From the NCBI GenBank assembly GCA_031370645.1, contig JANMQV010000152.1, forward strand, positions 102,473 through 166,472: a stretch of 64,000 bases of DNA, given 5' to 3'. The DNA is from Candidatus Eiseniibacteriota bacterium (lineage in GTDB: Bacteria; Eisenbacteria; RBG-16-71-46; SZUA-252). Position 1 is the first letter of the stretch, and each line of letters starts with the position of its first letter. Shown here piece after piece: positions 32,245 to 49,719 of the stretch. The notes below the pieces were generated by a model, which was not told the DNA's origin, searched no databases, and worked only from the letters and a program-made list of their open reading frames with translations. Both the position numbers and the translations under genes were made by a program.

Positions 32245-32262
32245 GCCGCGCCGGAGGGTGGG

Positions 32263-33384
32263 ATGAACGTCAAACGCGTGCTGCAGAAGGTGGTCGAGAT
32301 GAAGGCCTCGGACCTGCACGTCAAGGTCGGCACCAAGCCGATCGCGCGCGTGAACGGCGAGTTGGTCATGATCGACGAGCCGGCGCCGACTCAGGCGGAC
32401 CTCGACACCGTGGTGGATCAGATCCTCACGGGGAAACAGAAACGGGTGTTCGAGGAGACGAAGGAGATCGACTTCGCCTTCGGCGTCACGGGGCTCGCCC
32501 GCTTTCGCACGAACTTCTACCAGCAGCGCGGCACGACCGCGATGGTCTTCCGGCAGGTGCCGGCCAACGTTCCGGCGTTCGAGGATCTGAACCTTCCGAC
32601 GATTATCGAAGACGTGGCGTCGCGGCAGCGCGGGCTGATTCTCGTCTGCGGCACGGTCGGCTCGGGCAAGTCGACGACGCTCGCCGCCATGCTCGACAGT
32701 GTGAACCGCCGCGAGGCGAAGAACATCATCACCATCGAGGACCCGGTCGAGTTCCTCTTCCGAGACAAGAAGTCGTGCATCTCCCAGCGCGAGGTCGGGC
32801 TCGATACCGAGACGTTCCACGAGGGGCTGAAGCACATCCTCCGCCAGGATCCCGACGTCATCATGATCGGTGAAATCCGGGACGCGGAGACGATGCGGAC
32901 CGCCCTCATGGCGGCCGACACCGGGCACCTTGTCTTCTCCACGCTCCACACGATCGACGCCGCGCAGACGGTGAACCGAATCATCTCCTTCTTCCCGCCG
33001 CACCAGCACGAGGAGATCCGCTACCTCCTGGCCGGGACGCTCCAAGCGGTGATCGCGCTCCGACTCATTCCGCGCTCGGACGTTGAAGGACGCGTGCCGG
33101 CGTGCGAAGTGATGCTCGTCACTTCCACGATCCGCGAGTACCTGCGCGATCCCGAGAAGACATCGCTCATCTCGAGCGCCATCGCCGACGGCGTGTCGCA
33201 GTACAACATGCAGTCGTTCGACCAGTCGATCATGCGCTTCTACACGGAAGGGAAGATCACCCTCGAAAACGCGCTTCGTTACTCGTCGAATCCGACCGAG
33301 TTCGAACTGCGCGTGAAGGGGATCCACGCCACCTCGGACGAATCATGGAAGACGTTCGAGGCGAAGGTAGAGCCGGCCTCCTAG
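32263..33384 (+). CDS. Type IV pilus retraction ATPase, PilT/PilU family
   Basis: ASDLH, Walker A GTVGSGKSTT, Asp box TIEDPVE, Walker B PDVIMIGEIRD, His box GHLVFSTLH; AIRNLIRE-equivalent reads TIREYLRD. Confidence 0.93.
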   Translation: MNVKRVLQKVVEMKASDLHVKVGTKPIARVNGELVMIDEPAPTQADLDTVVDQILTGKQKRVFEETKEIDFAFGVTGLARFRTNFYQQRGTTAMVFRQVPANVPAFEDLNLPTIIEDVASRQRGLILVCGTVGSGKSTTLAAMLDSVNRREAKNIITIEDPVEFLFRDKKSCISQREVGLDTETFHEGLKHILRQDPDVIMIGEIRDAETMRTALMAADTGHLVFSTLHTIDAAQTVNRIISFFPPHQHEEIRYLLAGTLQAVIALRLIPRSDVEGRVPACEVMLVTSTIREYLRDPEKTSLISSAIADGVSQYNMQSFDQSIMRFYTEGKITLENALRYSSNPTEFELRVKGIHATSDESWKTFEAKVEPAS

Positions 33385-33408
33385 CGGCCGGCCGCCACGC
33401 CCCTTCCG

Positions 33409-34770
33409 ATGATCCAGAAGATCCTCGTCGCCAATCGCGGAGAAATCGCGCTCCGCGTCGTGCGCGCGGCGCGCGAGCTCGGTATCAAGACGGTCGCCGT
33501 CTACTCCGAGGCCGACCGGGAATCGCTTCACGTGCGGCTCGCCGACGAGGCCGTCTGCATCGGGCCGGCCCCCTCGTCCGCCTCCTATCTCTACATCCCC
33601 CGCATCATCAGCGCCGCCGAGATCACGGCGTGCGACGCCATTCATCCCGGCTACGGTTTCCTCTCCGAGAACGCGCACTTCGCCGAGATCTGCGAGTCGT
33701 GCAACATCCGCTTCATCGGCCCGACGTCGGAGATGATCCGGACGATGGGAGACAAGGCCGTCGCGCGGAAGACCGCCGTCGAGGCCGGCGTCCCCGTCAC
33801 GCCGGGGAGCGCGGGCGTTCTGAATTCGCCCGAGGAGGCCGTGGACACGGCGAAGGCGCTCGGCTACCCGGTCATCATCAAGGCGGCGGCGGGCGGAGGC
33901 GGGAAGGGAATGCGCGTGGCGCACGACGAGGCGTCGCTTCGAAACGGCGTCCTCACCGCGCAGGCGGAAGCCGAGGCGAACTTCGGATCGGGGCAGGTCT
34001 ACCTGGAGCGCTACGTCGAGAAGCCGCGCCACATCGAATTCCAGATCATCGGCGACCGGCAGGGGAACATCGTCCATCTCGGCGAGCGCGAGTGCTCCAT
34101 TCAGCGCCGACATCAGAAACTGATCGAAGAGTCGCCGAGCGTGGCGTTGACGCCCGAGCTCCGGACGAAGATGGGGGAGGCGGCGGTTCGCGCCGCGGCC
34201 GCCATTCGCTACGAGAGCACCGGGACGATCGAATTTCTGCTCGCGCCGAACGGCGAGTTCTACTTCATGGAGATGAACACGCGCATCCAGGTGGAGCATC
34301 CGGTCACCGAGGAGGTCACGAAACTCGACCTCATCAAGGCGCAGATCGCCGTGGCGGCGGGGGAGCCGCTTCCCTGGAAGCAGTCGGAGATCACGTTCCA
34401 AGGGCACGCGCTCGAATGCCGGATCAACGCCGAGAGCGCCGACAAGAATTTCCGTCCCTCGCCGGGTCTCGTGAAGTACTTCCACGCGCCCGGCGGTCCC
34501 GGCGTGCGCGTCGACAGTCACCTCTACTCCGGCTACACCGTGCCGCCCTACTACGATTCGATGGTGGCGAAGATCATCTGCTGGGGCCGCGACCGCGAGG
34601 AGTCGATCGCGCGGATGCGCCGCGCGCTCCTCGAGATCGTGGTCGACGGCATCGAGACGACCATTCCGTTCCACCGCCGCATCCTGGATGACGAGGGGTT
34701 CCTGAAGGGGGACATCCACACCGGCTATCTGGAATCGTGGCTTCAGGCGAACGCGGCGGCGACGCCGTGA
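33409..34770 (+). CDS. accC: Acetyl-CoA carboxylase biotin carboxylase subunit
   Basis: [60 protein letters not shown]. Confidence 0.97.
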
Positions 34771-35534
34771 CCCCCCGCGCGATCGGACGAATCGACCTCC
34801 ACGACACGCCGCACGAAGTCGAGCGAGGGGCGCTCGAGAATCGGCAACTCGTGGTGGTCGACGTGCTTCGGAGCTGCACCACGATCGCCACCGCGCTTCG
34901 AAACGGCGCCGCGAAGGTGATTCCGGTGGCGACGGTGGAAGAGGCGATGCGCCTCGCGCAGACGATGGACGCGAAGCAGCGGCTCCTCTGCGGCGAGCGC
35001 GACGGCGAGAAGGTGAACGGCTTCGACCTCGGGAACTCCCCCCTCGAATACGACAAGGCCCGCGTCGAAGGGAAGACGCTCCTCTTCGCCTCCACGAACG
35101 CGAGCCCGGTCATGGCGGGACTCTTGTCGGGATTCGAGCAGCGGCTTCTTGCCTACGTCAACGTGAGCGCGGTGGCGGACGCGGTGCGGAACGAGGGGGC
35201 GGATCTCACGATCGTCTGCTCCGGGCGAAACGGGCGCCTCTCGCTGGAGGATACGGCCTGCGCCGGAGCGCTCATTCGGCGCGTGATGGAGGGCGCGGGG
35301 AAGAGCGGTTCCGGCAAGGGGAGTGCGAAGCCGGAGTTGAACGACGCGGCCGAGATGGCGGCCGCCTACGACAAAGTCCACGGTGGCGATCCGGAGAAGA
35401 TCCTCCGTCGGAGCGACCATGGGCGCTATCTCATCGAACTCGGATTCGAGGACGACCTGCCGCTCTGCGCGGCGGTCGATTCCGTGCCGGTCGTGCCGCT
35501 CCTGCGGGACGGGCGGATCACGAACGGCGGTTAG
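34767..35534 (+). CDS. comB: 2-phosphosulfolactate phosphatase-like (ComB family)
   Basis: [40 protein letters not shown] start overlaps accC stop. Confidence 0.88.
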
Positions 35535-35565: not shown

Positions 35566-36648
35566 TCATCCACCTCTCCTCGCTCGTCGGAAGAGCTCCA
35601 GCGCCAAGATGCCGAACACGAGATTCCCGAGCCATGCCGCGAGCATCGGCGGAAGCGCGCCGTTATGCCCGAGCGCCTGCCCCGTTCTGATGAGCGCGTA
35701 GTAGATGAAGGAGATGAAGACCGAAAGACCGAACGCGATCGCGAGCCCGCCGCGCCGGTTTCGAAGTGCGAGGGCCACGCCGATCAAGACGACGATCAGG
35801 TTCGTGAGCGGGAAGGAAATCTTGAGGTAGAGCTCCACGAGATACTTCTGCACGCGGCTCCCGCTCTGGTGGAGCCGGTCGATGTAGTTCTCGAGTTGCC
35901 AGTAGGAGAGTCCCTTCGGATCTTCTTCCGCTTCCGCGAAATCCTCGGGGCGCTCCTTCAATCCGGGAATCGTCAGCTCGTTGAACTGCGCGGCGGTCTC
36001 GCCGCCGCGATCGAAGCGCCGCGTGTAGCCGTTCCGGAAGACCCAGCGCCCCTTCTCCCACTTGCCCGTGGCGGCGTCGATGCGTCCCGTGAGGGCGTTC
36101 TCGCGCACTTCCTGGATCACGACCTCTCTCATCTCCTTCTGAGCGATGAGATAGGAGCGAATGAGAAACGTCCGTCCGCCCGAGCCGAGGTACGCGAGAT
36201 TCGTCCGCGCTTGCGGCCCCTCGAGGTTCTCCTTCTTGATCTCCCCCCGGTAGAGCCGAATTCGCCGCGCGTTCAAGTCGGGGAGGACCATCTCGTTCAC
36301 CGTGAACGCGAGGAGGCTCACGATCACCGCCATGCCGATCAGCGGTGCGGCGATCCGCGCCGGGCCGAGCCCCGCCGTTCGCATGGCGTTCAATTCGTTC
36401 GTGCGTCCGAGTTGCCCCAGGGCGAGGAGGCACGAGAGAAGCATGGCCATCGGCAGCACCTGAAGCGCGATGCCGGGAACGCCCATGGCGTAATAGGCCG
36501 CCACGATGTGGGCGGGGACGTGATTGTCGAGGTAGGTGTCGATCTTCTCGAAGAGGTCGACCACGATGAAGACCACGACGAAGAAGACGAGCGCCGCGAA
36601 GAGGGCGGAGAGCGTTTCGCGAAGGACGTAGCGATCGAGGATCTTCAC
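35566..36648 (-). CDS. lptG: LPS export ABC transporter permease LptG
   Basis: GTG 36648 (VKILDRYVLRE); NELNAMRTAG, multiple TM helices, KISFP, WLGN. Confidence 0.88.
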   Translation of the reverse strand: MKILDRYVLRETLSALFAALVFFVVVFIVVDLFEKIDTYLDNHVPAHIVAAYYAMGVPGIALQVLPMAMLLSCLLALGQLGRTNELNAMRTAGLGPARIAAPLIGMAVIVSLLAFTVNEMVLPDLNARRIRLYRGEIKKENLEGPQARTNLAYLGSGGRTFLIRSYLIAQKEMREVVIQEVRENALTGRIDAATGKWEKGRWVFRNGYTRRFDRGGETAAQFNELTIPGLKERPEDFAEAEEDPKGLSYWQLENYIDRLHQSGSRVQKYLVELYLKISFPLTNLIVVLIGVALALRNRRGGLAIAFGLSVFISFIYYALIRTGQALGHNGALPPMLAAWLGNLVFGILALELFRRARRGG

Positions 36649-38081
36649 GCGGGGGTCGCCGGGGCGTGAGGAGGCGTGGTGCGGCGGCGGCGCTTCGGAC
36701 GCCGGATCACCTCGGCGGCCTGCAGCGTGAGGACGGCGCCGATCGCGCCGATGACGATGTTCGGCGCCCACATGGCGAACCAGGGGACGAGAATCCGCCG
36801 GTCCGCGAGCTCTTCTCCGCCGGCGAGGCAGAGGTAGTAGAAAACGAAGAAGAGGATCGAGAGAAACGCGACCGAAATTCCGCTCTTCCGCGCGCGCATG
36901 CCAAGCGGCGCCCCGACGAGCACGAAGACGAGGCAGGCGGCGGGGATCGAGAACTTCTTCTGCACTTCCACCTCGAGGCTGTTCGCGCGGCGCTCGAGTC
37001 CGTCGATCTCCAACTGCCGCATCTGAATCAGATCCATCGTGACCGGCGAGATGACGCGGACCGCGCTCGTGCCGCCGTCGCGCGCTCGCTCGGGGAGCCC
37101 GGTGGCGATCACGCCGACCGATCCGAGGGCGCGAAGCGCGTTCCGGAGCCACGCCTGGATGCCCCGTGGCGCCGGGTGGGGCACCGCCGCGCGAACGAAT
37201 TCGTCGTACGACTCGAAGCCGGCGCTCTCCAAAATCTGGTTTCGAACCTCTTTCGCCGCGTCTAAGTCATGACGCACCAGCCGGATGGCCTCCTGCATCA
37301 TGCCCAAGTTCATCTCCCGGTCGCCGCGGGCGGACTTGTTCCTCCGCTCCAGATCGGTCCCCGGTGACCGAATATTAATGAGGTGCGTCTTGAACATAAG
37401 CCGCCGGTAGGTCCGTTCGTCGTCGTTGGGCGGAACTTCGTGGATCTCGCCGTCGTGCAGCTCGAGCGTCATCACGCGGCCATCAGGCGTGTTGTGGATC
37501 CTTCCCCACTCGGCGAGGATCGTCGTGGGGCGCGCGGTGGTGTTCAACTGATAGATCTTAACGCCCCGGATCTCGTTCGTCCGGCTGTTCACTTTTTCGA
37601 CGAAGATGTTGTACCCCTCGAAGGCGTCGATGAAGACCCCTTCGGTGATCTGCGCGGTGGGGCGCTTTCGGCTCACGTCGGACATGAGGCTCGCGAGCGC
37701 GTGATTCGACTCGGGCAGGACCAGGTTGTTGAAGAGGACCAGGAGCCCCGCGAGCACCGCGGCCGCGCCGAGTGGCGCGCCGATGATGCGCGCGAGATTC
37801 ACGCCGGTCGAGCGCATGGCGGAAATCTCGTTGTCTTGCGAGAGGCGGCCGAACGCCGCGAGCGACGCGATGAGGACCGCGCAGGGGAACGCCAGCGCCA
37901 CCATGTAGCCGAGGGAGAGGACGAAGAGTTCCAGGACGATCCCGAGGCTCACGCCCTTTCCGATGGCGAGATCGACGAGATCGAAGAGGAAATCGAGCGT
38001 CAACAAGAACACGACGATGCTGAACCCGATGAGAAACGGGAACAGGTGCTCGCGGAGGACGTAACGTTCGAGTATTCTCAT
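36645..38081 (-). CDS. lptF: LPS export ABC transporter permease LptF
   Basis: ATG 38081 (MRILERYVLRE); GRLSQDNEISAMRSTG, KKFSIPAACLVF..VGAPLG, MWAPN; paired with lptG. Confidence 0.88.
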   Translation of the reverse strand: MRILERYVLREHLFPFLIGFSIVVFLLTLDFLFDLVDLAIGKGVSLGIVLELFVLSLGYMVALAFPCAVLIASLAAFGRLSQDNEISAMRSTGVNLARIIGAPLGAAAVLAGLLVLFNNLVLPESNHALASLMSDVSRKRPTAQITEGVFIDAFEGYNIFVEKVNSRTNEIRGVKIYQLNTTARPTTILAEWGRIHNTPDGRVMTLELHDGEIHEVPPNDDERTYRRLMFKTHLINIRSPGTDLERRNKSARGDREMNLGMMQEAIRLVRHDLDAAKEVRNQILESAGFESYDEFVRAAVPHPAPRGIQAWLRNALRALGSVGVIATGLPERARDGGTSAVRVISPVTMDLIQMRQLEIDGLERRANSLEVEVQKKFSIPAACLVFVLVGAPLGMRARKSGISVAFLSILFFVFYYLCLAGGEELADRRILVPWFAMWAPNIVIGAIGAVLTLQAAEVIRRPKRRRRTTPPHAPATPA

Positions 38082-38118
38082 TCGGGTCGCCGAGGCGAGC
38101 CCCGGCAGGTCTAGGCGC

Positions 38119-38148
38119 AGTATAGGGAGCCCCGCCGACCCGGCGCAA
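38119..38148 (-). promoter_or_regulatory. Putative sigma-70 promoter for lptFG
   Basis: Minus strand reads TTGCGC, 18-nt spacer, TATACT, about 40 nt upstream of the lptF ATG. Confidence 0.4.
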
Positions 38149-38194
38149 TCCTCTGGGTGGATTCCAACTCCTTCCGAGAGAATCGTTTCCGGTT

Positions 38195-38222
38195 CGAACT
38201 TCACCGTGCGAGAGGGGTACAA
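38195..38222 (+). promoter_or_regulatory. Putative ECF-sigma promoter upstream of sprA
   Basis: GAACTT-N15-GTACAA; aligns without gaps to the motif upstream of the ECF sigma gene (shared GAAC.T..CCG.......GGGGTA..A). Confidence 0.4.
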
Positions 38223-38257
38223 GGACTGTCGTCGGCCCCGAATTCCCCGGGGCCGTA

Positions 38258-41200
38258 GTGCGTGAAGGGATGCCCAACGCTCAACTCGTCAGCCGCACCA
38301 AGATCCGCCGCTCGCTGGTATGGCCCGGGGCGTGGCCCGGCCCGCCGGGGGCTCGCATCGGCGTGCCCGGAGTGAGGGGAGAGCGTCGGACCTCGATCGC
38401 GACGGGGGCGCTCCTCGTCGCCGCCGCCCTCCTCGCCATCGCGCCCCACGCTGCCGCCGATCTTCGCTTCGACCCCCTCGACCCTCAAGCCCAGGCGGCC
38501 GATCCCACCGCCGAATCCATGCCGCCCGGATTTCCGAAAGGATGGCGGCTCACCGTCGAATCACCGATCCCGGGGACGTCGGCCTGGCAGACGCAGGTCG
38601 CCCTCGATCCCTCCACCGGCACCGTGCGCGAGCGCTATCGCGCCGGGAACGTGGAGGTTCGGGAGCCCCTCGTCGCACCGACTCTCGACTACAACGAACT
38701 CCTGACCGAACGGACCGAGCGACGGCTCTGGCGCGAGCGGACGAAGTCGACGCGCTCCGTGAACAAGACGGTAACCCGTCGAGGGGCCGGCCTCGTCTTC
38801 AAGTTTCCCCTGGTCCTTCCACCGGCAGTACGGAGCATCGTCGGTAACGGCGCTCCTAGCATCGAGGTCTCCGGAAGCGAACGGATCTCCATTCTCGGCA
38901 CGAGCGACTGGCTCGCTCGCGGCAATCTCTACCAGGGGATTTCCGGTGAGCGACAGCGCCAGGGCGCGTTCCCCGCCTTCGAAATGAAGCAGGAGCTGAG
39001 CGTCAACATGACCGGCTCCATCGGCGACAAGATCAAAGTCGACGTCGATCAGTCGAGCAACGTCAGCACCAATCTCGACAACAAGGTGAAGCTCCGCTAC
39101 GAAGGCGACGAAGACGACATGATCAAGACGATCGACCTCGGAAACACGAACCTCTCGCTGCAGGGGGCGTCGCTTCGCCAGGAGGGGCTCTTCGGTATCA
39201 AGACCGCGGCGAAGATGGGGAATTTCGACGTCACCCTCATCGCGAGCAAGCAGGACGCGAAGACGGAGACGGCGCGCTTCACCCCCTCCGGCGAGAAGCG
39301 GGCGGTGAAGGTCACCGACATCGAATGCATTCGCCGGACCTATTACTTCATCGCCGATCACCCCATCGATGCGTCGGCGATGAACTTGATCGTCTACCGG
39401 GCCGACCCGTCCTACAACGCCACCTCCTTTCCCGGCGACGGGCGCCTCGATCCGACGTTGCCCGCCGACTCGATCTCGACTCCCGGAAACCCGCAGCAGT
39501 TCGGGCGCTGGTTGCCGCTCACCATCGGGCAGGACTACGACCTCATCTATCCCTACGTGCTGACGAACACGCCGGGAAACGTGAAGATTCCCGTGATTCG
39601 CCTGCGCGCACAACTCGGCACGTCCCAGATGCTCGGCGTCTCCTATTACGACCTCGGAAGGCAGGTCCAGGTCGGCTTGACGGACAAGGTAGAGAACCTC
39701 GCTCTCGGAAAGCCGGCGGGAGAATACCTGCTCCTGAAAATGTTGAAGCCGCCCGAGGGCGAGTTCACGACGACCGCGAATGACCTCTTCGACCGGAACG
39801 CGCCCTGGTTCCCGGCGCTCGCGTACGAACTGCGGAATTTCTACGATCTGGGCGGCCGAGAGATCGACCGTTCGTCGCTCTCGATCAAGGTGCGGAAGAT
39901 CGACAACAGCCTCCCGACGCATCCGGACGAAGTGGGCGGCGTGCCGCTCGTGAGGATTCTCGGCCTCGACCACCAGGGAAAGGCGGGGAGCGACGAGCCG
40001 TTTCAGCCCGACGGCCTGGTGGACGACCAGTTCATCGATACCGACACCGGCATCATGTTCTTTCCCGACCTCCACCCCTTCGCTCCCGACACGAGTGCCG
40101 CGTACCGCGCCCTCTGCGGTCCCGACGCGGGCGGATTTCTCTGCCTCGACAATTTGAAAACGAACACCCTCTGGGCCGATTCGAACTTCGTGAACCTGAA
40201 CGTCTACTACGACCGGCAGCCCGATCCAGGGAAGGACGAGCGCTACTTCATCGACGCGGAGTTCAAGAGCAGCCAGCAGGGCTTCTATCTCGGCCGGTTC
40301 GGCATCTTGGAGAACTCCGAGCAGGTGAAGGTGGACGGCATCCCGCAGCGGCGCGTTTCCGACTATCGGATCGATTACGACACCGGGCTCCTCACCTTCA
40401 CGAAGGCTCCCGGTCCGGAGCAGGTGATCACCGCCGACTTCTCCTACGCGCCGGGCTTCGGCCAGGTGCAACGCTCCCTCGTCGGTTTCTCGGGCGGCTA
40501 CAACCCGTCGTCGAATTTCTCCCTCTCCTCGAGCCTCCTTCGCGAGGCGCGCGGGGCGCAGGAGACGAACCCGAAGCTAGGCGAAGAGCCCGCGACCTCC
40601 ATGCTCGGTGATTTCGGCGCGGTCATGTCGTTCCGGCCGTTCTGGATGACGCGGCTCGCCGACCAGGTGCCCGGGATCACGACCGATCAGCAGTCGGCGC
40701 TCAACGTTCAGGGGAATTTCTCGGTCAGCCTTCCGAATCCGAACACGAAGGGCGAGGCCTACATCGACGACATGGAAGGGAACCGCGAGTCGAACACGAT
40801 CGGCTTGGGGCGCCTCTCCTGGTTCTGGAGCAGCGTCCCCGTGAATCGGCAGAAGCCGCGAAAGGCCGGCTTGCCCCCCGCCGATTCGATCGCGAACGCA
40901 GCCCTCACGCCTGTCTCGAGCCTCGTCACCGACCACGCCCGGCTCGAGTGGTTCAATCCGCGCCCCGACGGCCCCACCGCCGCGCAAGAGTGGGACATCA
41001 AGCCGGTCTTGAAACAGTCGGAGGGGGGGGACAACAACCACCAGGTGCTCGAGCTGAACGTGAGAGCACCCGATGACACCACGCTGATCGACAGCGCCGA
41101 TTGGACCGGAATCACGCAATCGCTCTCCACGGTGGGACAGGACTTCTCTCGCGTCCGCTTCGTGGAGGTCTGGGTGAATGACTTCACGAAGGACCACGAC

Positions 41201-44200
41201 TCCACGAAGGCGTACCTCCACTTGAGCCTCGGCCGGGTGAGCGAAGACGCCTTCTGGAGCCCGAGCGAGGCGCCAAATCTAAAACTCGACACCGAGGATA
41301 AGAACTTCGACGGGAAGCTCGACTTGGGAAGCGGGGAAGACGACCCGAACTTCGAAGACACCGGGCTCGACGGGATTGTGAACAAGAACGAGCCGGGCTA
41401 CAACGCGACGACGAATCCCGATCCGAACCAGGACAACTACGACTACGACGTTCGAAATAACGCGAACGACTTCTCGACGATCAACCGCTTCGAGCGAAAC
41501 GGGCTCGGCGAGGCGAACGCGCGCCCCGATACCGAGGACTTGAACCGGAATACGATCCTGGACAGCAACAACAACTACTACGAGGCCTCCATCGATCTCG
41601 CGGACACCCAGTTCGTCGCGATCGACGTGCCCGTGCTCTACCCCAGCGCCTCGTACACGAATGTCAAGGCCGACAACGGATGGCGGCTCTTCCGGATTCC
41701 GATCAACGGCGACACCTTCCGCCCGGTCGGCTCTCCGTCGTGGCAGAACATCCAGCACCTCCGCCTCTGGGTGAGCGGAATCGAGCGGCCAATCAAGATT
41801 CAGGTCGGCGGAGTCGAATTCGCCGGGAGCCGCTGGCTCGAGGCGGCGATCCTCGACCCCGACATGACCGCGCGCGACGTGGAGCTGGACGTCCGCTCCC
41901 GAAACAACAAGGACGACGCGGGCATCTACCAGCCACCCTACGAAGTCCAGAACCAGGTCGGCTCTTCCGCCGATCGCCGCGAGCAATCGCTGGCGCTCGG
42001 ATATACGCGCATGGCCGAGGGCGACACGCTCCTCGCGTTCAAGACGCTTGGCGACCCCGGCACCGGTCTCGGTTGGGCGCAATACCGTCAGATCAAGTTC
42101 TACGTTCACGGAGAGCAGGGCGTGGAGACGCAGAACCTCCGAGCCGTCGCCCGATTCGGTCCCGACACACTGAACTATTACGAGTACAGCCTGCCGGTCC
42201 GAACCGACTGGCAGAAGATCACGATCCCGATGGAGACGCTCTCGCGCCTGAAGGAAGTCCGCTCCGATTCCCAGTACGTCTACGTCGACTCCCTCACGGG
42301 GGCGGCCAGCAGCGAGGTCTTCACGGTCGTCGGAAATCCGAGCTTCACGCGCATCTCGCGGCTCAGTTTCGGGCTCGCGGTGAAGGGCTCGGCCATCGGG
42401 GCGCCGCCGGCGTCCGGCGAGGTTTGGATCGACGAACTCCGTCTGGCGGACGTCCGGAGAGAGACGGGGACGAGCAGCAATGTCTCGATCCAGGCCAACT
42501 TCGCCGACCTCTTGGCGCTGAACGTCAGCCTTCAGAAGCAGGACCAGAATTTCTTCCGCGTCGGACAGGGTGGGAACCAGGGGAGCGGGCTCGATCACAC
42601 GGCGCTCGGATTCTCGACGACGCTCAATGTCGATCGCTTCCTGCCGGCGAGCAACATCACGCTTCCGGTCCGGCTCTCGGTTCAGCACGCGACGGACGTC
42701 CCGAAATTCCGCACCGGGTCGGACGTGACGTTGGACGCGGGCCAATCCGACATCGAGACGCGGCGGCTCGACCAGCAGACGCTCGACGTCTCCTATCGCC
42801 GGAGCAGCTCCATTCGCCGCGGGATCTCCAAATATACGATCGACGCCATCAGCAGCACGATGAGCTATTCGCGCCGGGCCTCGATCAATCCGCAATCAGC
42901 CGAATCGTCGTGGGCGTTCAGTTCGAGTTTCGGCTACGACCTTCCGATCGGTGGCGGCGGTTTCCGACTGGGAAAGAAGTTCAGGGTGGGCCTCCTACCT
43001 GAAGTGATCGGCTTCAACGTCGGCTGGAGGTCAGAACGCTCGCTCGTCTATTCGCGCGAAATCTTCCGCGACGACGACTCGGTGACGCTTCGCTCCGACG
43101 TGAAAGTGCGCCTTCTGTCGCTCGGCACGAACGTCTCCTACGTTCCCTTCTCCTCCGTCCGAGTGCAGTACACCCTCAATTCGACGCGCGACATGCTCGA
43201 CCATCGCGAAGGACCGATGGGATTCAACAAGGGGAAGGAAGTCGAGAAGAACCAGACCGCCTCGGTGAACTGGACACCGCGGTGGCTCTCCTTTCTGCAG
43301 CCGAATGTGACGCTGAAGGGGCAATACAACGAGTCCGCCCGCCGCGAACTCCGCCTCGCGCCGACCGATCCCCAGGACTTGAAGAGCATCCGGAACAATG
43401 GCGCCGCGAATCTGACGATGAGTCTTCCGATCTCCCGGCTGGGCGGCGGCGGGAGACACGCGCGCCCGGCGGCCGGGGGAGCGAAGAAGGGCGAATCGTT
43501 CTCGCCGCTCGCTCCATTCCGGGGCTTCTTCCGAAAGATGCAGGACATCCAAACATCATTCACCTTCGACCGCGGCGCCACCCTGAGCCGCGTCGTCGGC
43601 GACGCGGGGGTCCCGTTCAAGTCGGGGTTCAGCGAGGTGACCGCCGAAGACTTGCGGAACATCTCGGGATCGAACGGGACTACGAATCGCCGATTCACGA
43701 CGCGCGCCTCCACCGCGTTCCGTCCCAGCAGCTCGCTGACGATCGACATACGCGGCGACCACTCCCTTTCCTTCACCGACCAGTCGTTCGGCGAGCGGCG
43801 CACGCAACGGGTCCAGTGGCCCGATCTCCAGGGTCGATGGGTCGACGTGCATCGCCACCTTCATCTCGACCAGACGCTCACCAGTCTCACGGTCCGCTCC
43901 GGCTATTCGCACGTGGCCGACGAGGACGGCCCTCTCGACGCGGCGGTGGAACGGACGATCAAGACCGACACCTACGGCCCGATTCTCGGATGGGATTTCG
44001 TCTTCCGAAACGGCGTGCGCGCCAGCGTGGCGAGCTCGCTCACGCGCGCGGCCACGATCGACGCGCGCGTCTACGGCGTGACGCGGGACAAGAAGACGAC
44101 GAACTCGGACGTCCGAGTCACGAAGACCTTTCCGGCCGCGAAGGGGATTCATCTCCCCTTCAGCAAGAAGACCATCCGGCTGCCGAACGACCTCAACTTG

Positions 44201-44431
44201 AATCTGACCTGCAACCTGGCGGGGGATCGGCAGATCGTGAGCCGTTCCGGCGAGCGGAATTACACGGAGAGCGACACGAAAAGTTTGAAGGTTGGGACCG
44301 GAACGACCTACAATTTCAGCCGCGCCATCACGGGAGGGTTCAATTTCGAATACCGGCAGAACGACGACCGAAAGCTCGGAATCAAGCGGCGCGGAATCAC
44401 GGTTGATCTCAACGCGGCCTTCACGTTCTAA
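38258..44431 (+). CDS. sprA: SprA/Sov-like outer-membrane translocon of the type IX secretion system (start uncertain: 38258, 38270, 38363 or 38372)
   Basis: 2057 aa; signal peptide ...APHAAA; SprA-like segments QELSVNMTGSIGDK...LRYEGDEDDMIKTIDLGN...GLFGIK, DYRIDYDTG, GEAYIDDMEG, PDTEDLNRN, GEVWIDELRL; beta-barrel-type C-terminus ending in Phe. Confidence 0.85.
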   Translation: MREGMPNAQLVSRTKIRRSLVWPGAWPGPPGARIGVPGVRGERRTSIATGALLVAAALLAIAPHAAADLRFDPLDPQAQAADPTAESMPPGFPKGWRLTVESPIPGTSAWQTQVALDPSTGTVRERYRAGNVEVREPLVAPTLDYNELLTERTERRLWRERTKSTRSVNKTVTRRGAGLVFKFPLVLPPAVRSIVGNGAPSIEVSGSERISILGTSDWLARGNLYQGISGERQRQGAFPAFEMKQELSVNMTGSIGDKIKVDVDQSSNVSTNLDNKVKLRYEGDEDDMIKTIDLGNTNLSLQGASLRQEGLFGIKTAAKMGNFDVTLIASKQDAKTETARFTPSGEKRAVKVTDIECIRRTYYFIADHPIDASAMNLIVYRADPSYNATSFPGDGRLDPTLPADSISTPGNPQQFGRWLPLTIGQDYDLIYPYVLTNTPGNVKIPVIRLRAQLGTSQMLGVSYYDLGRQVQVGLTDKVENLALGKPAGEYLLLKMLKPPEGEFTTTANDLFDRNAPWFPALAYELRNFYDLGGREIDRSSLSIKVRKIDNSLPTHPDEVGGVPLVRILGLDHQGKAGSDEPFQPDGLVDDQFIDTDTGIMFFPDLHPFAPDTSAAYRALCGPDAGGFLCLDNLKTNTLWADSNFVNLNVYYDRQPDPGKDERYFIDAEFKSSQQGFYLGRFGILENSEQVKVDGIPQRRVSDYRIDYDTGLLTFTKAPGPEQVITADFSYAPGFGQVQRSLVGFSGGYNPSSNFSLSSSLLREARGAQETNPKLGEEPATSMLGDFGAVMSFRPFWMTRLADQVPGITTDQQSALNVQGNFSVSLPNPNTKGEAYIDDMEGNRESNTIGLGRLSWFWSSVPVNRQKPRKAGLPPADSIANAALTPVSSLVTDHARLEWFNPRPDGPTAAQEWDIKPVLKQSEGGDNNHQVLELNVRAPDDTTLIDSADWTGITQSLSTVGQDFSRVRFVEVWVNDFTKDHDSTKAYLHLSLGRVSEDAFWSPSEAPNLKLDTEDKNFDGKLDLGSGEDDPNFEDTGLDGIVNKNEPGYNATTNPDPNQDNYDYDVRNNANDFSTINRFERNGLGEANARPDTEDLNRNTILDSNNNYYEASIDLADTQFVAIDVPVLYPSASYTNVKADNGWRLFRIPINGDTFRPVGSPSWQNIQHLRLWVSGIERPIKIQVGGVEFAGSRWLEAAILDPDMTARDVELDVRSRNNKDDAGIYQPPYEVQNQVGSSADRREQSLALGYTRMAEGDTLLAFKTLGDPGTGLGWAQYRQIKFYVHGEQGVETQNLRAVARFGPDTLNYYEYSLPVRTDWQKITIPMETLSRLKEVRSDSQYVYVDSLTGAASSEVFTVVGNPSFTRISRLSFGLAVKGSAIGAPPASGEVWIDELRLADVRRETGTSSNVSIQANFADLLALNVSLQKQDQNFFRVGQGGNQGSGLDHTALGFSTTLNVDRFLPASNITLPVRLSVQHATDVPKFRTGSDVTLDAGQSDIETRRLDQQTLDVSYRRSSSIRRGISKYTIDAISSTMSYSRRASINPQSAESSWAFSSSFGYDLPIGGGGFRLGKKFRVGLLPEVIGFNVGWRSERSLVYSREIFRDDDSVTLRSDVKVRLLSLGTNVSYVPFSSVRVQYTLNSTRDMLDHREGPMGFNKGKEVEKNQTASVNWTPRWLSFLQPNVTLKGQYNESARRELRLAPTDPQDLKSIRNNGAANLTMSLPISRLGGGGRHARPAAGGAKKGESFSPLAPFRGFFRKMQDIQTSFTFDRGATLSRVVGDAGVPFKSGFSEVTAEDLRNISGSNGTTNRRFTTRASTAFRPSSSLTIDIRGDHSLSFTDQSFGERRTQRVQWPDLQGRWVDVHRHLHLDQTLTSLTVRSGYSHVADEDGPLDAAVERTIKTDTYGPILGWDFVFRNGVRASVASSLTRAATIDARVYGVTRDKKTTNSDVRVTKTFPAAKGIHLPFSKKTIRLPNDLNLNLTCNLAGDRQIVSRSGERNYTESDTKSLKVGTGTTYNFSRAITGGFNFEYRQNDDRKLGIKRRGITVDLNAAFTF

Positions 44432-45338
44432 GCTCTCGGTAGCGCTCCTCATCCTCGCGCTCTTGCTCCCATCGTGCGGGCGCCCCAAGGCGGCCTCGTT
44501 CGACGGCCGGAAAGCCTACGGATGGGTGGAGCGCCAGCTCGCCTTCGGCCCCCGCGCCCCCGGTACCGCCGCGCATGACTCCTGCTTCCAATTCCTCGAA
44601 GCGACGATGCGCGGCTACGCCGACGCCGTGGAGGTCGACACCTTCAGCTACTACGTCCCTCGGCTCGCGAAGGAAGTCCGGCTCTACAATCTTCGCGCCC
44701 GCTTCGCGTCCGACGCCGAGCAGCGGATCGTCCTCGGCGCGCACTGGGACACGCGCCCCTGGGCCGACCAGGATCCCGTGGCGACGCGCCGGAACGAGCC
44801 GATTCTCGGCGCGAACGACGGCGGCTCCGGCGTGGCCGTCCTTCTCGAACTGGCCCGCATGCTCCACGAGCAAAAGCCGAAGGTCGGCGTCGACATCGTC
44901 TTCTTCGACGGCGAAGACCTCGGCACTCCGGAGGACCAGGCGGGGTGGTTCCGCGGCTCGAAGGAGTACGTGTCGCGCCGCCTTCGCGAGCCGAAGCCGC
45001 TCTTCGCCATCGTGGTCGACATGGTCGGGAAGCGCGACCTGGCGCTTCATTGGGAGGGGAACTCCTATGAACAGGCGGCGAATATCGTCGACCTGGTTTG
45101 GGGCGTGGCCCGGCAGTTGAACATCCGGTCGTTCCGCTCCGACGTCCGCCACCGCGTCTTCGACGACCACATGCCGTTCCTCGAAGCGGGCATTCCGGCC
45201 ATTGTCCTCATCGATTTCGCGTTCCCCGAATGGCATACCCACCAGGACACCCTCGGCGTCGTCGAACCCTCGAGCCTCGAGGGCGTCGGGCGGGTCCTCC
45301 AGTCCCTCGTATACGACCCGAGTTACCTCTCCGACTGA
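44403..45338 (+). CDS. M28-family zinc lipoprotein resembling Bacteroidota type II glutaminyl cyclases
   Basis: Inferred TTG start inside the sprA 3' end gives signal ...LLILALLLPSC; motifs FGPR.PG, AHWDTRP.AD.D, GANDGGSG, FFDGED.G, DMVG, DDH.PF, WHT..D. Confidence 0.8.
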   Translation: MISTRPSRSKLSVALLILALLLPSCGRPKAASFDGRKAYGWVERQLAFGPRAPGTAAHDSCFQFLEATMRGYADAVEVDTFSYYVPRLAKEVRLYNLRARFASDAEQRIVLGAHWDTRPWADQDPVATRRNEPILGANDGGSGVAVLLELARMLHEQKPKVGVDIVFFDGEDLGTPEDQAGWFRGSKEYVSRRLREPKPLFAIVVDMVGKRDLALHWEGNSYEQAANIVDLVWGVARQLNIRSFRSDVRHRVFDDHMPFLEAGIPAIVLIDFAFPEWHTHQDTLGVVEPSSLEGVGRVLQSLVYDPSYLSD

Positions 45339-45458: not shown

Positions 45459-45977
45459 ATGAGAAGCGAGTTACGGGAGGACCTGACCCGGCGCTTTGGG
45501 GCCCTTTTGGCTGAAGAGGCGTTCGACCTATGGGACCTGGAGGTCGCCTCTCAGTCGGGTCATATGGTGCTCCGGGTATTCGTCGACCGGCCCCCCGGCG
45601 TCGCCGCCGGCGTTACCGTCGGCGAATGCTCGTATTGGAGCAAGAAACTTAGCCGGTATCTGGAGGCCGAGAACCTGCTGCGCGGAACCTTCGCGCTGGA
45701 GGTCGGGTCGCCGGGAATCGAACGAGCGCTGACGAGGCCGGATCATTACGCCCGGTTCGTCGGGCACCAAGTGGAAGTACGCCTCCACGATCCGAAGGAG
45801 GGTCGGCGCAACTTCCGGGGGGAACTCCGGGCGGCGAGCGCCGACACGATCATCGTCGAGGACGCGGAAGTGGGAACGGTCTCGCTCCCGCTCGCGCAGG
45901 TCAAGCGGTCGCACGTGATCGCGGACCCGTGGGAGGGATTGCGAGAGCCGAAACGCAAGCACGGCCAGACACCATAG
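45459..45977 (+). CDS. rimP: Ribosome maturation factor RimP
   Basis: LRVFVDR, GVTVGEC, LEVGSPGIERAL, GRRNFRG; first gene before nusA. Confidence 0.93.
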   Translation: MRSELREDLTRRFGALLAEEAFDLWDLEVASQSGHMVLRVFVDRPPGVAAGVTVGECSYWSKKLSRYLEAENLLRGTFALEVGSPGIERALTRPDHYARFVGHQVEVRLHDPKEGRRNFRGELRAASADTIIVEDAEVGTVSLPLAQVKRSHVIADPWEGLREPKRKHGQTP

Positions 45978-46017
45978 ACTTCGCCAGCATCGATTCCATC
46001 GGAACGGGGTCCCATTC

Positions 46018-47460
46018 GTGGCACGAGAGCCGCAGCGAAATACGAACTATGAGCTGATCGAGGCGATGGCCCAGATCGCGCGCGAAAAGAGCGTCGATAA
46101 GGCCACCGTCATCGACACGCTGGTCGCCGGACTCCTTTCGGCCGGCCGAAAGCGCTTCGGCCTGGACGCCAAGCTCGAAGTCTCGTTCGACGAAGCGAGC
46201 GGCCGCATCGTCATGAAGCTCACGCGGACGGTGGTCGAGGACGCCGAGGATGCGGGCCTCGAGATCGATCTCTCCGAGGCGCAGAGCGTCGACGAGAAGG
46301 CCGTCATCGGGCAGGAACTGACGTCCGAACTCACGCTCGAAGACCTCGGGCGAAACGCGATCTCGGCCGCGAAGCAGGTGCTGGTCCAGAAGGTGCGCGA
46401 GGCCGAGCGCGAGCGGATCTACGAGGATTATCACGACCGCGTCGGCGAAATGGTGCGCGGCACCGTGCAGCAAGTGGACCGCGGCAACATCTACGTGAAG
46501 CTGGAGCGCTCGGAGGCGATTCTACCGCCGCGCGAGCAGATCGCGCGCGACCGCTTTCACCAGGGCGACCACATCAAGGCCTACATCATCGCCGTGGACA
46601 AGGCGGCCCGCGGACCGCAGGTCGTCCTTTCGAGGACGCATCCGGAATTTCTGCGCCGGCTCTTCGAGGCGGAAGTTCCCGAAGTATCGGAGAAGATCAT
46701 CGAGATCAAGGGAATCGCCCGCGAACCGGGCTCCCGCGCGAAGATCTCGGTGGTTTCGAACGACGACAAGATCGATCCGGTCGGAGCGTGCGTCGGCATC
46801 AAGGGCTCGCGCGTGCAGGCGATCGTGCGGGAACTGGGCGGCGAGAAGATCGACATCGTTCCCTGGAGCGCCGACCCGGTCGTCTTCGTGACGCGGGCGC
46901 TTTCCCCGGCGAAGGTCATCGAGGCGCAGGTGATCGAGGCGGAGCAGAAGGTGCTCGTCACGGTGGCCGACGATCAGCTCTCGCTCGCCATCGGCAAGGG
47001 GGGCCAGAACGCCCGACTGGCCGCGCGGCTCACGGGCTGGAAGATCGATCTCATTTCAAAGAGCGAACGCGAGCGCCAGCGCGACTTCGAGCGCCGCGCC
47101 CGCATCGATATCGAGGAACTGGAAGGCGCCGGCCCGAAGCTGGTGGAGAAGCTGATTCGCGAGGGGATCGAAACGGTGCAGGACCTTCTGAAGACACCGT
47201 TCGAACAGATCCTCGCCATCCAGGGAATCGGCGAGAAGACCGCGGAGAAGCTGCTCGAGGAGGCTCGGGCATTACAGGAAAGACGAAATCAGGAACTAGC
47301 GGAAGAGGCTGCACGTGCCGAGGCCGAAGCGGCCGCGGCCGGTGCGGACGACGAAGCGGAAGCGGAAATCGCGGAAGTGGCGCCCGTCGTGGCCGGGGAC
47401 GCGGAAGAAGCGACGGCGGCGGCGGCGACGGCGGACGAAGAGCGGACGCCCGAAGCCTAG
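46018..47460 (+). CDS. nusA: Transcription termination/antitermination factor NusA
   Basis: GRNAISAAKQ, S1 domain, KH domains AREPGSRAKI and DPVGACVG..GSRV, LSLAIGKGGQNARLA, HhH repeats, acidic tail. Confidence 0.97.
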   Translation: MAREPQRNTNYELIEAMAQIAREKSVDKATVIDTLVAGLLSAGRKRFGLDAKLEVSFDEASGRIVMKLTRTVVEDAEDAGLEIDLSEAQSVDEKAVIGQELTSELTLEDLGRNAISAAKQVLVQKVREAERERIYEDYHDRVGEMVRGTVQQVDRGNIYVKLERSEAILPPREQIARDRFHQGDHIKAYIIAVDKAARGPQVVLSRTHPEFLRRLFEAEVPEVSEKIIEIKGIAREPGSRAKISVVSNDDKIDPVGACVGIKGSRVQAIVRELGGEKIDIVPWSADPVVFVTRALSPAKVIEAQVIEAEQKVLVTVADDQLSLAIGKGGQNARLAARLTGWKIDLISKSERERQRDFERRARIDIEELEGAGPKLVEKLIREGIETVQDLLKTPFEQILAIQGIGEKTAEKLLEEARALQERRNQELAEEAARAEAEAAAAGADDEAEAEIAEVAPVVAGDAEEATAAAATADEERTPEA

Positions 47461-47481
47461 CCAGGGCTCCATCGGAGATTC

Positions 47482-49719
47482 ATGACGAGCGGAAAGAAAC
47501 GAGTTTACGAAGCGGCGAAGGAGATGGGGATGTCGAGCGAAGCGCTCGTCACAATCCTCAAGTCCATGTCCGTGGAAGTGAAGAGCCACATGAGCTCGAT
47601 CGGCGACGAGGTCCTCGGGCAGGTGCGGTCGAAGCTGGCGCGCGAGAAGGAAGCAGTCAAGGAAGAGGAGGCGCGCCGGAAAGAGAAGGCCGCGCAGGTC
47701 GCGCGCGTGGCCGCCGAAGCGCAGCGCCGTACCGCGCCTCCGCCTGCGGGCGGCGGGAGCAGTGGCGGTAGCAGCGGTGGCGGCGGCGGCGGGCTGAAGA
47801 TCGGCGTCGGCGGAGGCGGACGTCCCGGCAAGAAGAAGAAGCGCGCCGTGGACGAGAAGCTCGTCGCCGCGGCCGTGCGCCGCACCGTGGCCGATATGGA
47901 GACGTCGAAGCGCCGCCATCACCGCCGGGATCGCGAGGACGACGCCGCTGTGGGGGTGGAGGAAGCGCCGCGCGTCATCCGGCTCGCCGAGTTCGCCTCC
48001 GTGGCTGAGCTGGCCGCCCGGATCGAAATGAAGCCGTCGGAAGTGATCGCGGCCTGTCTTCGACTCGGAATCATGGCGAACATCAACCGCCGTCTCGATC
48101 GCGACTCGATCATGGCGGTGGCCGACGAATTCGGGTTCGCGGTCGACTTCGTCTCCGTGCTGGGCGAAGAAATCGAGGTCGCATCGCCCGCCGAGGAGCA
48201 ACTCGAGCCTCGCGCGCCCGTCGTGACCGTCATGGGCCACGTCGATCACGGCAAGACTTCGCTCCTCGACTACATCCGTAAAGAGAACGTCATCGCCGGC
48301 GAGGCCGGCGGCATCACGCAGCACATCGGCGCGTACGAAGTGACGCTCCCCGACGGCCACAAAATCGCCTTCCTCGACACGCCGGGCCACGAGGCCTTCA
48401 CGGCCATGCGCGCCCGCGGCGCCCAGGTGACCGACATCGTGGTCCTCGTCGTGGCGGCGGACGACCGCGTCATGCCGCAGACGGTTGAAGCGATCGACCA
48501 CGCCCGCGCGGCGAACGTGCCGATCATCATCGCGATCAACAAAATCGATCTCCCCGCGGCCAACGTGGAACAGGTCCGCCAGGAGCTTTCGCAGCACAAC
48601 ATCCTCACCGAAGAGTGGGGCGGAAAGACGATCGCCGTTCCGATCTCCGCCAAGAAGGGAACGAACATCGACAAGCTGCTGGAGATGATCCTCCTGCAGG
48701 CCGAGTTGATGGAACTTCAAGCCGACCCCCACAAGGCGGCGCGCGGCGTCATCGTCGAAGCGCGGCTCGACAAGGGGCGCGGCATCGTGGCGACCGTCCT
48801 CGTGCAGAAGGGGACGCTCCGCGTCGGGGACGCCTTCGTGGCGGGCTCGAAGAGCGGCAAGGTCCGCGCGCTTCAGAACGAGCGCGGTCAGAAGGTGGAA
48901 GAGGCGGGACCGTCGACGCCGGTGGAAGTGCTCGGTTGGGCCGAGCCGCCGCAGGCGGGCGACACCTTCGCGGTGGTCGAGGACGAGCGCGAGGCCCGCG
49001 AGCTGGCCGGCAAGCGCGCCATTCTCCTCCGCGAGCAGGAACTCCGCGTGCAGAAGCACGTGACGCTCACCGACCTCTTCACGCAGATGAAGGAAGGAAA
49101 GGTGAACGAGCTCCTCGTCGTCCTGAAGGGCGACGTGGACGGCTCGGTGGAGGCGCTCCAGGACACGCTGACGAAGCTCTCCACGGCCGAGATCAAACTG
49201 CGCGTCATCCATCGCGGCGTCGGCCAGATCACCGAGTCCGACGTGCTCCTCGCGGCCGCGTCGAACGCCGTCATCATCGGCTTCCATGTGAAGCCCGATC
49301 CGAAGGCGGTCGAACTGGCGGCGAAGGAGAAGGTGGACGTCCGCCTCTACGACATCATCTATCAGGCCGTGGAAAACGTGAAGGACGCCATGGCCGGGCT
49401 TCTGGCCCCCGAGATCGTCGAGACGGTGGTGGGACAGGCCGAGGTGCGGAAGATCTTCCGCCCGTCGAAGTCGGGCGTGGTGGCCGGCTGCATGGTCCTC
49501 TCCGGCACGATTCAGCGGAACGCCCGGGCGCGCCTCCTCCGTGGAGGGGCGGCGGTCTGGGAAGGAAAGATCGAGTCGCTCAAGCGCTTCAAGGACGACG
49601 CGAAGGAAGTGGCGAGCGGCTTCGAATGCGGCATCTCTCTCGAGAGCCGCGACGACATTCAGGAAAAGGATGTGATCGAGGCCTACGTCCTGGAGGAAGT
49701 CGCCCGCAAGTTGGAGTGA
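47482..49719 (+). CDS. infB: Translation initiation factor IF-2
   Basis: [53 protein letters not shown]. Confidence 0.98.

What the first reader, a model, noticed from the sequence alone, without database searches (positions are those of the whole stretch)
35566..44431. T9SS translocon SprA in a high-GC, apparently non-Bacteroidota genome, divergent from lptFG
Seen: a 2057-aa exported protein with SprA-type segments and a terminal Phe, containing several Asp/Asn-rich loops (DTEDKNFDGKLD, EDTGLDG, DPNQDNY, DTEDLNRN) that resemble Ca-binding motifs. It is head-to-head with lptF-lptG, and no porKLMN/gldKLMN or porV is in the window. Known: SprA is the 36-stranded T9SS channel characterised in Bacteroidota, and T9SS cargo is anchored to LPS in Porphyromonas. 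Inference: this is an ancestral or minimal T9SS-like system, perhaps with a different energiser, co-regulated with LPS export.
Basis: partly seen in the sequence, partly recalled or inferred. Interest (0 to 1): 0.75.

Follow-up and report, generated by a model that had tools for sequence, protein, structure and literature searches.

The report
Type IX pore without known motor
This uncultured soil/sediment bacterium has the giant outer-membrane pore and most export parts of type IX protein secretion, plus about 67 cargo proteins, but none of the recognisable motor genes that power this system in the bacteria where it has been studied.

Summary
The 2057-aa gene is a true SprA: TIGR04189 532 bits against a cut-off of 200, and its C-terminal model matches F. 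johnsoniae SprA to the end. The host is Ca. Eisenbacteria (nearest SprAs 81% identical). The system is not minimal. Elsewhere the genome has PorU-PorV, 8 PorV-family barrels, 67 C-terminal type-A cargo domains, a PorZ-like protein and a single-copy SprE-like lipoprotein (99 of 101 phylum genomes). In those 101 genomes PorU is universal, GldK never reaches its cut-off, and GldL/M/N were not found; the GldL/M/N searches lack a positive control. The acidic loops are ordinary SprA features. lptFG is the housekeeping LPS permease. It is divergent from sprA in 50 of 60 related loci, but each gene has its own, different promoter-like motif, so co-regulation is unproven. An ExbBD-TonB operon with a PorV-type barrel is in only 34 of 101 genomes, so it is not the general engine. 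Verdict: a working type-A T9SS variant without the Gld energy chain, energiser unknown. One paper notes a partial system in Ignavibacteria, and this scan has found SprA in Eisenbacteria before on other DNA (14 notes).

The parts
38258..44431 (+). sprA/sov, T9SS outer-membrane translocon, 2057 aa (start GTG 38258 or ATG 38270)
   Evidence: TIGR04189 532 bits > 200; PF14349; phmmer to 6h3i/6h3j E 1e-41; C-terminal model matches 8gl6/8gl8/6h3i
41288..41551 (+). Asp/Asn-rich loop cluster of SprA (aa 1011-1098)
   Evidence: positions and conservation in 15 homologues; three motifs align to F. johnsoniae SprA
36645..38081 (-). lptF, LPS export permease, 478 aa; the only copy found in the genome
   Evidence: PF03739; TIGR04407 200 bits, under its cut-off of 230; single locus by tblastn; start
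35566..36648 (-). lptG, LPS export permease, 360 aa, overlapping the lptF stop
   Evidence: TIGR04408 247 bits > 240; start
38119..38148 (-). conserved sigma-70-like promoter motif facing lptF (TTGC..N..TATACT)
   Evidence: 13 of 19 family intergenic regions; below the threshold of the consensus scan; function inferred
38196..38221 (+). conserved motif GAAC-N17-GT(A/T)(C/T)A facing sprA; ECF-sigma-like (resemblance recalled, from no call)
   Evidence: 16 of 19 family intergenic regions at a fixed place; 21 of 85 loci overall against 0.6 expected from shuffles; no genome-wide excess
44403..45338 (+). lipoprotein, M28 family, glutaminyl-cyclase-like; overlaps the sprA 3' end
   Evidence: PF04389; best PDB matches 6qro/6qql glutamine cyclotransferase, E 1e-50; inferred TTG start
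45459..49719 (+). rimP-nusA-infB, downstream part of the conserved block
31765..35534 (+). accB-pilT/U-accC-comB-like, upstream part of the conserved block, convergent on lptG

Best explanation
This locus encodes the translocon of a working, type-A type IX secretion system of Ca. Eisenbacteria that lacks the GldKLMN/PorKLMN energy chain. Shown here: the parts list (SprA, PorV, PorU with an intact-looking His/Cys pair, ~67 proteins with a C-terminal type-A-like domain, Skp, PorZ-like and SprE-like candidates). Inferred from the F. johnsoniae/P. gingivalis mechanism: cargo crosses the inner membrane by Sec; some cargo is N-terminally cyclised by the co-transcribed glutaminyl cyclase; cargo enters the SprA barrel and its C-terminal domain binds a PorV-family carrier docked at the lateral gate; the carrier-cargo pair leaves; PorU cleaves the domain and may couple the cargo to a surface glycolipid. 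The release step needs energy in F. johnsoniae. My lead for the replacement (about 0.4 within this explanation) is a Ton/Tol-family ExbB-ExbD motor acting through a periplasmic TPR scaffold (the SprE-like lipoprotein). Unpowered release made irreversible by PorU (about 0.3) and a motor too divergent for the models (about 0.3) remain open. The lptFG adjacency is an old gene order joining two outer-membrane biogenesis functions that are read from separate promoters.
For: SprA over cut-off here and in 29 of 31 relatives (31 of 31 match). The C-terminal 868 residues fold with mean pLDDT 86 into about 25 long strands; the top four Foldseek hits are all SprA (E 7e-36 to 2e-28, next hit 2e-7); VIA aligns 803 of 868 residues to SprA 1261-2401, Z 20.7, rmsd 13. 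PorU NF033707 scores 444.8 > 420 next to a PorV-family gene (223.7 > 90) and has GHG and SC motifs. PorU matches in 101 of 101 phylum genomes, 80 over cut-off. 67 of 68 FlgD-Ig matches end within 40 aa of the stop. In the same 101 genomes: GldM 0, GldN 0, GldL 1 weak, GldK 0 over cut-off; the GldK model does find FGE-domain relatives in 40 of 101 but nothing in this 95%-complete genome. The SprE-like lipoprotein is in 99 of 101 genomes, essentially one copy, and in 5 of 5 genomes of other phyla; its best natural PDB match with the 4-sequence profile is SprE 8gl8_I, in register from the N-terminus. The only periplasm-spanning proton motors I found are three ExbB/MotA-family genes in two Ton-type clusters, one of them in an operon with a PorV-family barrel and a CTD protein.
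Against: No Bacteroidia genome could be searched as a positive control for GldL, GldM, GldN or PorP (all gave zero), and a highly diverged motor would escape these models. PorV (146.8 < 250 on the strict model), the PorZ-like protein (70 < 260) and the SprE-like protein (55-109 < 250) are under their equivalog cut-offs. With a deeper profile, SprE scores no better than generic eukaryotic TPR proteins. The Ton operon with the PorV-type barrel was found in only 34 of 101 genomes and was not found with this query in near-complete genomes that have PorU. The other Ton cluster has ordinary clients (at least 4 TonB-dependent receptors) and no linkage to sprA. No expression or secretion data. The whole barrel was not folded.
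Confidence: 0.75

Rival explanations
1. Canonical T9SS whose GldLM motor and GldKN track are present but too divergent for Bacteroidota-trained HMMs.
For: SprA itself is only ~21% identical to Bacteroidota SprA; the PorZ-like and SprE-like candidates fall far below cut-off; there is no positive control for GldL/M/N. In F. johnsoniae, removing the motor traps substrates on the translocon (PMC10994853, passages).
Against: SprA, PorU and PorV are detected easily by the same pipeline. GldK belongs to the FGE-sulfatase fold, which the model detects at 50-110 bits in unrelated proteins, yet this genome gave no candidate and 61 of 101 phylum genomes no match at 1e-10.
Confidence: 0.15
2. The eight-gene operon (CTD cargo, PorV-FlgD barrel, large TPR, ExbB, ExbD, ExbD, TonB, FlgD-Ig protein) is the dedicated replacement engine of the translocon.
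For: It joins a PorV-family carrier to a proton motor; gene order is kept, with all 8 genes in 14 of 18 fetched loci, 7 of 8 in one, and three cut by contig ends.
Against: The orthologous barrel (E < 1e-100) is in 34 of 101 genomes while PorU is in 101 of 101, and it was not found with this query in G051, G089, G035, G025 or G053 (1-20 contigs, 90-100% complete). It fits better as a private carrier/motor for one surface protein.
Confidence: 0.1
3. sprA and lptFG are co-regulated from a shared bidirectional promoter because cargo anchoring is coupled to LPS export.
For: Divergent pair in 19 of 20 class loci and 50 of 60 wider loci, including Fermentibacteria/Aegiribacteria, where the downstream neighbours differ; the intergenic gap is short (~180 nt); lipid A genes are present.
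Against: There are two distinct, non-overlapping motifs, one for each gene. The pair is absent in Zixibacteria-type loci, in L065, L076, L103 and in P. distasonis. Neighbouring housekeeping genes (acc, rimP-nusA-infB) are about as conserved within the class. Kin are not independent.
Confidence: 0.25
4. SprA here is a relic or serves another role (for example an S-layer or nutrient pore) and is not a secretion channel.
For: No known energy chain; no functional data.
Against: Full-length, intact and near-universal in the class, co-occurring with PorU, PorV and dozens of C-terminal sorting domains.
Confidence: 0.05

Closest known systems
SprA (F. johnsoniae; PDB 6H3I, 6H3J, 8GL6, 8GL8) / Sov (P. 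gingivalis)
   Same: Collinear from the N-terminal Skp-binding region to the C-terminus, with the same acidic loops and a terminal aromatic residue
   Different: About 350 aa shorter and ~21% identical to P. distasonis SprA; gene lies between lptFG and a glutaminyl cyclase, not after ruvA
Bacteroidota type IX secretion system (SprA, PorV, PorU, SprE, SkpA, GldKLMN, PorG; PMC10994853, PMC12635249, passages read)
   Same: Translocon, carrier, sortase, type-A-like cargo, and Skp, SprE-like and PorZ-like candidates
   Different: No GldK, and GldL/M/N and PorP/SprF not found; no gene between clpC and bamA, where F. johnsoniae locus numbers place porG close to skpA
Partial T9SS of Melioribacter and Ignavibacterium (PMC11705866, passage)
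   Same: SprA and PorV without the other core T9SS proteins in a non-Bacteroidia FCB lineage
   Different: That paper reports it in one sentence from BLAST of an oral-microbiome database; here PorU, cargo, an SprE-like candidate and phylum-wide counts are added for Eisenbacteria
LptB2FG LPS extractor (E. coli)
   Same: Single lptF-lptG pair, with lptB beside kdsD and rpoN and lpxD/A/B beside bamA elsewhere
   Different: LptF has a ~100-aa periplasmic insertion with no informative atlas match; E. coli LptA and LptC gave no tblastn hit

Membership tests
SprA/Sov translocon | TIGR04189 above curated cut-off | tested here: met
   532 bits vs 200
SprA/Sov translocon | full-length collinearity with solved SprA, including the C-terminal barrel half | tested here: met
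   phmmer aa 130-1495; profile match; model aa 1190-2057 aligned to SprA 1261-2401
SprA/Sov translocon | closed 36-strand barrel with lateral gate | tested here: inconclusive
   only the C-terminal 868 aa were folded: ~25 long strands, rmsd 13 to SprA
canonical T9SS | PorV carrier | tested here: met
   PF19572 and NF033709 over cut-off, gene directly after porU; strict NF033710 146.8 < 250
canonical T9SS | PorU sortase with C25 His/Cys pair | tested here: met
   NF033707 444.8 > 420; GHG and SC motifs
canonical T9SS | cargo with C-terminal type-A sorting domain | tested here: met
   67 of 68 FlgD-Ig matches are C-terminal; TIGR04183 over cut-off in the one beside porV
canonical T9SS | GldK/PorK track protein | tested here: not met
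   no candidate in own genome; 0 of 101 over cut-off, best 110 vs 350 bits and FGE domain only; the model rang in control genomes
canonical T9SS | GldL/GldM motor and GldN | tested here: inconclusive
   GldM 0 of 101, GldN 0 of 101, GldL 1 of 101 weak; no positive-control genome was available
canonical T9SS | SprE/PorW lipoprotein | tested here: inconclusive
   single-copy TPR lipoprotein in 99 of 101 genomes; matches SprE from the N-terminus but scores 55-109 vs 250 bits
canonical T9SS | PorZ and PorP/SprF | tested here: inconclusive
   733-aa repeat protein with CTD scores 70 vs 260 bits; PorP 0 in own genome without a ringing control
canonical T9SS | PorG, PorT, PorE, PorD, Plug, PPI | not tested
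   no family search was run for these
canonical T9SS | proton-motive-force-dependent secretion and attachment of cargo to LPS | not testable with these tools
   needs a cultured relative
LptF/LptG permease | PF03739 pair, with lptB and lipid A genes in the genome | tested here: met
   (LptF slightly under its TIGR cut-off)

The most novel reading that the evidence does not exclude
The extended translocon (SprA, PorV, Skp, SprE-like lipoprotein) with PorU is ancestral to many FCB phyla and works without the gliding track, powered by a Ton/Tol-type motor or by no motor. The GldKLMN energy chain would then be a later Bacteroidota addition, which reverses the published inference that type IX transport first evolved as part of the gliding machinery.
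Probability: 0.45. Interest if true: 0.78.

Novelty: new variant of a known kind. Interest (0 to 1): 0.5.

Why it matters
In F. johnsoniae the Gld energy chain is needed to eject carrier-cargo pairs from SprA (PMC10994853, passages), and a 2025 paper infers that type IX transport first evolved within Bacteroidota gliding (PMC12635249, Discussion passage). A phylum with translocon, sortase and dozens of cargo proteins but no recognisable track shows either another way to power the pore or that power is dispensable, and it bears on the order in which secretion and gliding evolved. It is testable in cultured relatives reported to have SprA and PorV alone (Melioribacter, Ignavibacterium; PMC11705866). 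The gene itself is a routine annotation, and the lptFG link is probably only old gene order.

Tried and rejected
(1) Positive control for GldL/M/N: the genomes behind loci labelled Ignavibacteria have Zixibacteria-type gene order, and their phylum gave 0 of 41 for GldM; a P. distasonis record with sprA and porU held no gldM; viral contigs gave nothing. The control is still missing. (2) Single-sequence fold of the 1103-aa SprA-like protein of the porU operon: pLDDT 31, unusable; no PDB sequence match. (3) ECF-like regulon: the motif matrix gave 8 genome hits over 14 bits against 6-11 in shuffles, so no regulon is shown; the motif is nearly confined to the family. (4) The consensus promoter scan found nothing. 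(5) The two ~290-aa genes after porV have no Pfam or NCBIfam match; the first also has no PDB match and only an atlas lead, DUF5683 on 15-25% of members. (6) The LptF insertion gave no atlas hit of 0.9 or more. (8) The first tree timed out; it was redone with 33 sequences after dropping 16 redundant loci and has one long-branch Bacteroidota outgroup, so the root is weak. (9) The eight-gene Ton operon was rejected as the general engine on distribution. (10) A crude signal-peptide census gave Gln at +1 in 14 of 103 against a 2.7% background: enrichment, not a majority rule, and the method is rough.
Full report
Observation. The ORF at 38258-44431 (+) is 2057 aa and ends in Phe. It scores 532 bits on TIGR04189 (cut-off 200), matches PF14349 and hits only F. 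johnsoniae SprA in the PDB (E 1e-41, four stretches, aa 130-1495). Sequence evidence thinned towards the C-terminus, so I folded aa 1190-2057 with a 73-sequence alignment: mean pLDDT 86.4, pTM 0.63, about 25 long strands. Foldseek ranks four SprA entries first (E 7e-36 to 2e-28; next 2e-7) and VIA aligns 803 of 868 residues to SprA 1261-2401 (Z 20.7, rmsd 13). The N-terminal half was not folded, so the 36-strand count is untested. Three of the four acidic motifs align with F. johnsoniae SprA and all four are conserved in the class; they are family features. lptF (36645-38081) and lptG (35566-36648) are on the minus strand.

Host. The genome is 3.0 Mb, 66% GC and 95% complete. SprA matches in 31 of 31 relatives, 29 over cut-off. 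A 33-sequence tree (16 redundant loci dropped; one Bacteroidota outgroup) groups SprA by phylum, with Eisenbacteria as one clade (support 1.0) and Zixibacteria nearest P. distasonis. This fits vertical descent, but the root is weak.

The rest of the system is elsewhere in the genome. Contig C94 has porU (NF033707 444.8 > 420, with GHG and SC motifs), then a PorV-family gene, an M6-like CTD protein, two unknown genes, an NHL protein, a 1103-aa protein with a weak SprA match and an Omp85 protein. There are 8 PorV-family barrels. Of 68 FlgD-Ig matches, 67 lie within 40 aa of a stop codon, and 61 of these proteins end in Arg or Lys. A 733-aa repeat protein with a CTD is PorZ-like but under cut-off. 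skp follows bamA. A TPR lipoprotein between pyrC and pyrK (G000:C98) is present, essentially once, in 99 of 101 phylum genomes (four of them built the profile) and in 5 of 5 genomes from other phyla. Its best natural PDB match with a 4-sequence profile is SprE (8gl8_I, E 5e-17, in register), and one member matches NF052312 from model position 25. However, scores are 55-109 against a cut-off of 250, and with a 26-sequence profile SprE ties with eukaryotic TPR proteins. It is a candidate, not a proven orthologue.

The energy chain. In one sample of 101 phylum genomes (90 of them at least 90% complete; the tallies include the unpublished G041) PorU matches in 101, 80 over cut-off. In the same sample GldM matches in 0, GldN in 0, GldL in 1, weakly, and GldK over cut-off in 0, with FGE-domain-only hits of at most 110 bits in 40 and none in this genome. 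Four genomes from other phyla have PorU matches (three of them over cut-off) and no GldM; 41 genomes of a further phylum, probably Zixibacteria by gene order, had no GldM. PorP was not found in this genome. Against this reading: I could not obtain a Bacteroidia positive control for GldL/M/N or PorP, and very divergent motors would be missed.

Candidate energisers. The genome has three ExbB/MotA-family genes. One is in an eight-gene operon with a CTD protein, a PorV-FlgD barrel, a large TPR protein, ExbD, ExbD, TonB and an FlgD-Ig protein; all 8 genes were seen in 14 of 18 fetched loci. But its barrel has an orthologue (E < 1e-100) in only 34 of 101 genomes and was not found with this query in several near-closed genomes that have PorU, so it cannot be the general engine. 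The other two ExbB genes lie in a TPR-exbB-exbD-exbD-tonB-tonB-exbB-exbD cluster that has ordinary clients available (at least 4 TonB-dependent receptors). By inference I favour a Ton/Tol-type motor acting through the SprE-like scaffold (about 0.4) over unpowered release or an unrecognised motor (about 0.3 each).

lptFG. This is the only lptF-lptG pair found; lptB sits with kdsD and rpoN, and lpxD/A/B with bamA. It is divergent from sprA in 19 of 20 class loci and in 50 of 60 wider loci with enough flank (the sets overlap and kin are not independent). It is retained in Fermentibacteria, where the downstream genes differ, and lost in Zixibacteria-type loci, L065, L076 and L103 and in P. distasonis. 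The glutaminyl-cyclase-like gene follows sprA in 35 of 52 loci. The ~180-nt gap holds two separate conserved motifs: a sigma-70-like one facing lptF (13 of 19 family sequences) and GAAC-N17-GT(A/T)(C/T)A facing sprA (16 of 19; 21 of 85 overall against 0.6 expected). The second resembles ECF promoters (recalled, from no call); T9SS genes of P. gingivalis are under an ECF factor (PMC4800418, title and abstract start). The motif shows no genome-wide excess (8 vs 6-11), although the next-best site precedes a gene that looks by eye like an M48 peptidase. Co-regulation is therefore possible but not shown.

Literature. PMC10994853 (passages): energy is needed to release carrier-cargo from SprA, and SprE/SkpA are needed for release. 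PMC12635249 (passages): PorG is disulfide-linked to GldK, and the authors infer that T9SS first evolved within gliding. PMC4793230 (passages): T9SS restricted to Bacteroidetes in 2013 genomes. PMC11705866 (passages): Melioribacter and Ignavibacterium have PorV, SprA and Plug only. PMC11205867 (passages): T9SS in the FCB superphylum. PMC7323717: none of six taxon terms occurs in the main text. PMC5837995 and PMC10653852 (abstract starts): the Q-rule. Searches pairing T9SS with Eisenbacteria or Zixibacteria returned 0 papers; searches listed none on motorless systems in these phyla (one search listed 20 of 101). Subscription journals are not covered and no supplements were read.

Verdict. The gene is a known family member. 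The system is a variant of T9SS lacking at least GldK and probably the whole Gld chain. Interest 0.5.

Noticed in passing
G000:C98:5029-6333 (L191): Single-copy TPR lipoprotein between pyrC and pyrK, in 99 of 101 phylum genomes and 5 of 5 others; candidate SprE/PorW. Some families carry a ~130-aa insertion near profile position 250.
   Followed up: partly
G000:C105:19346-30408 (L128): Eight-gene operon: CTD cargo, PorV-FlgD barrel, 1056-aa TPR, ExbB, ExbD, ExbD, TonB, FlgD-Ig protein; order fixed, patchy in the phylum (34 of 101).
   Followed up: yes
G000:C94:27350-44221 (L045): porU-porV operon continues with an M6-like CTD protein, two ~290-aa unknowns (DUF5683 lead for one), an NHL protein, a 1103-aa protein with a weak SprA match and a terminal Phe, and an Omp85 protein.
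   Followed up: partly
G000:C189:10352-18438 and C195:615-11452 (L046, L047): TonB-dependent receptor, large secreted protein, PorV-family barrel and GWxTD protein clustered twice.
   Followed up: partly
window 44403-45338: Glutaminyl-cyclase-like lipoprotein overlapping the sprA 3' end; follows sprA in 35 of 52 loci; a crude census shows Gln enriched at +1 (14 of 103).
   Followed up: partly
G000:C131:63442-65643 (L184): 733-aa repeat (propeller-like) protein with a C-terminal sorting domain, PorZ-like but under cut-off.
   Followed up: partly
G000:C232:1631: Second-best genome match to the sprA upstream motif, 16 nt before a gene that looks like an M48 metallopeptidase.
   Followed up: no
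window 36645-38081: LptF has a ~100-aa periplasmic insertion relative to the TIGR model; no informative atlas match.
   Followed up: partly
L118, L122, L071, L099, L115: Record titles (Ignavibacteria, Saccharimonadales, Verrucomicrobiia, Methylomirabilota) disagree with gene order, and for L122 with SprA tree position, which look like Zixibacteria or Eisenbacteria.
   Followed up: no
L081, L086, L091, L092, L100, L101, L107, L113, L114, L121: In Fermentibacteria-type loci sprA is followed by three or four PilT/PilB-family ATPase genes instead of the cyclase; a possible alternative energy link.
   Followed up: no
window 32263-33384: A PilT/PilU ATPase gene is inserted between accB and accC in most class loci.
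   Followed up: no
L028 (G018): Many genes around sprA are frame-broken in this single-contig genome, as in uncorrected long-read assemblies.
   Followed up: no
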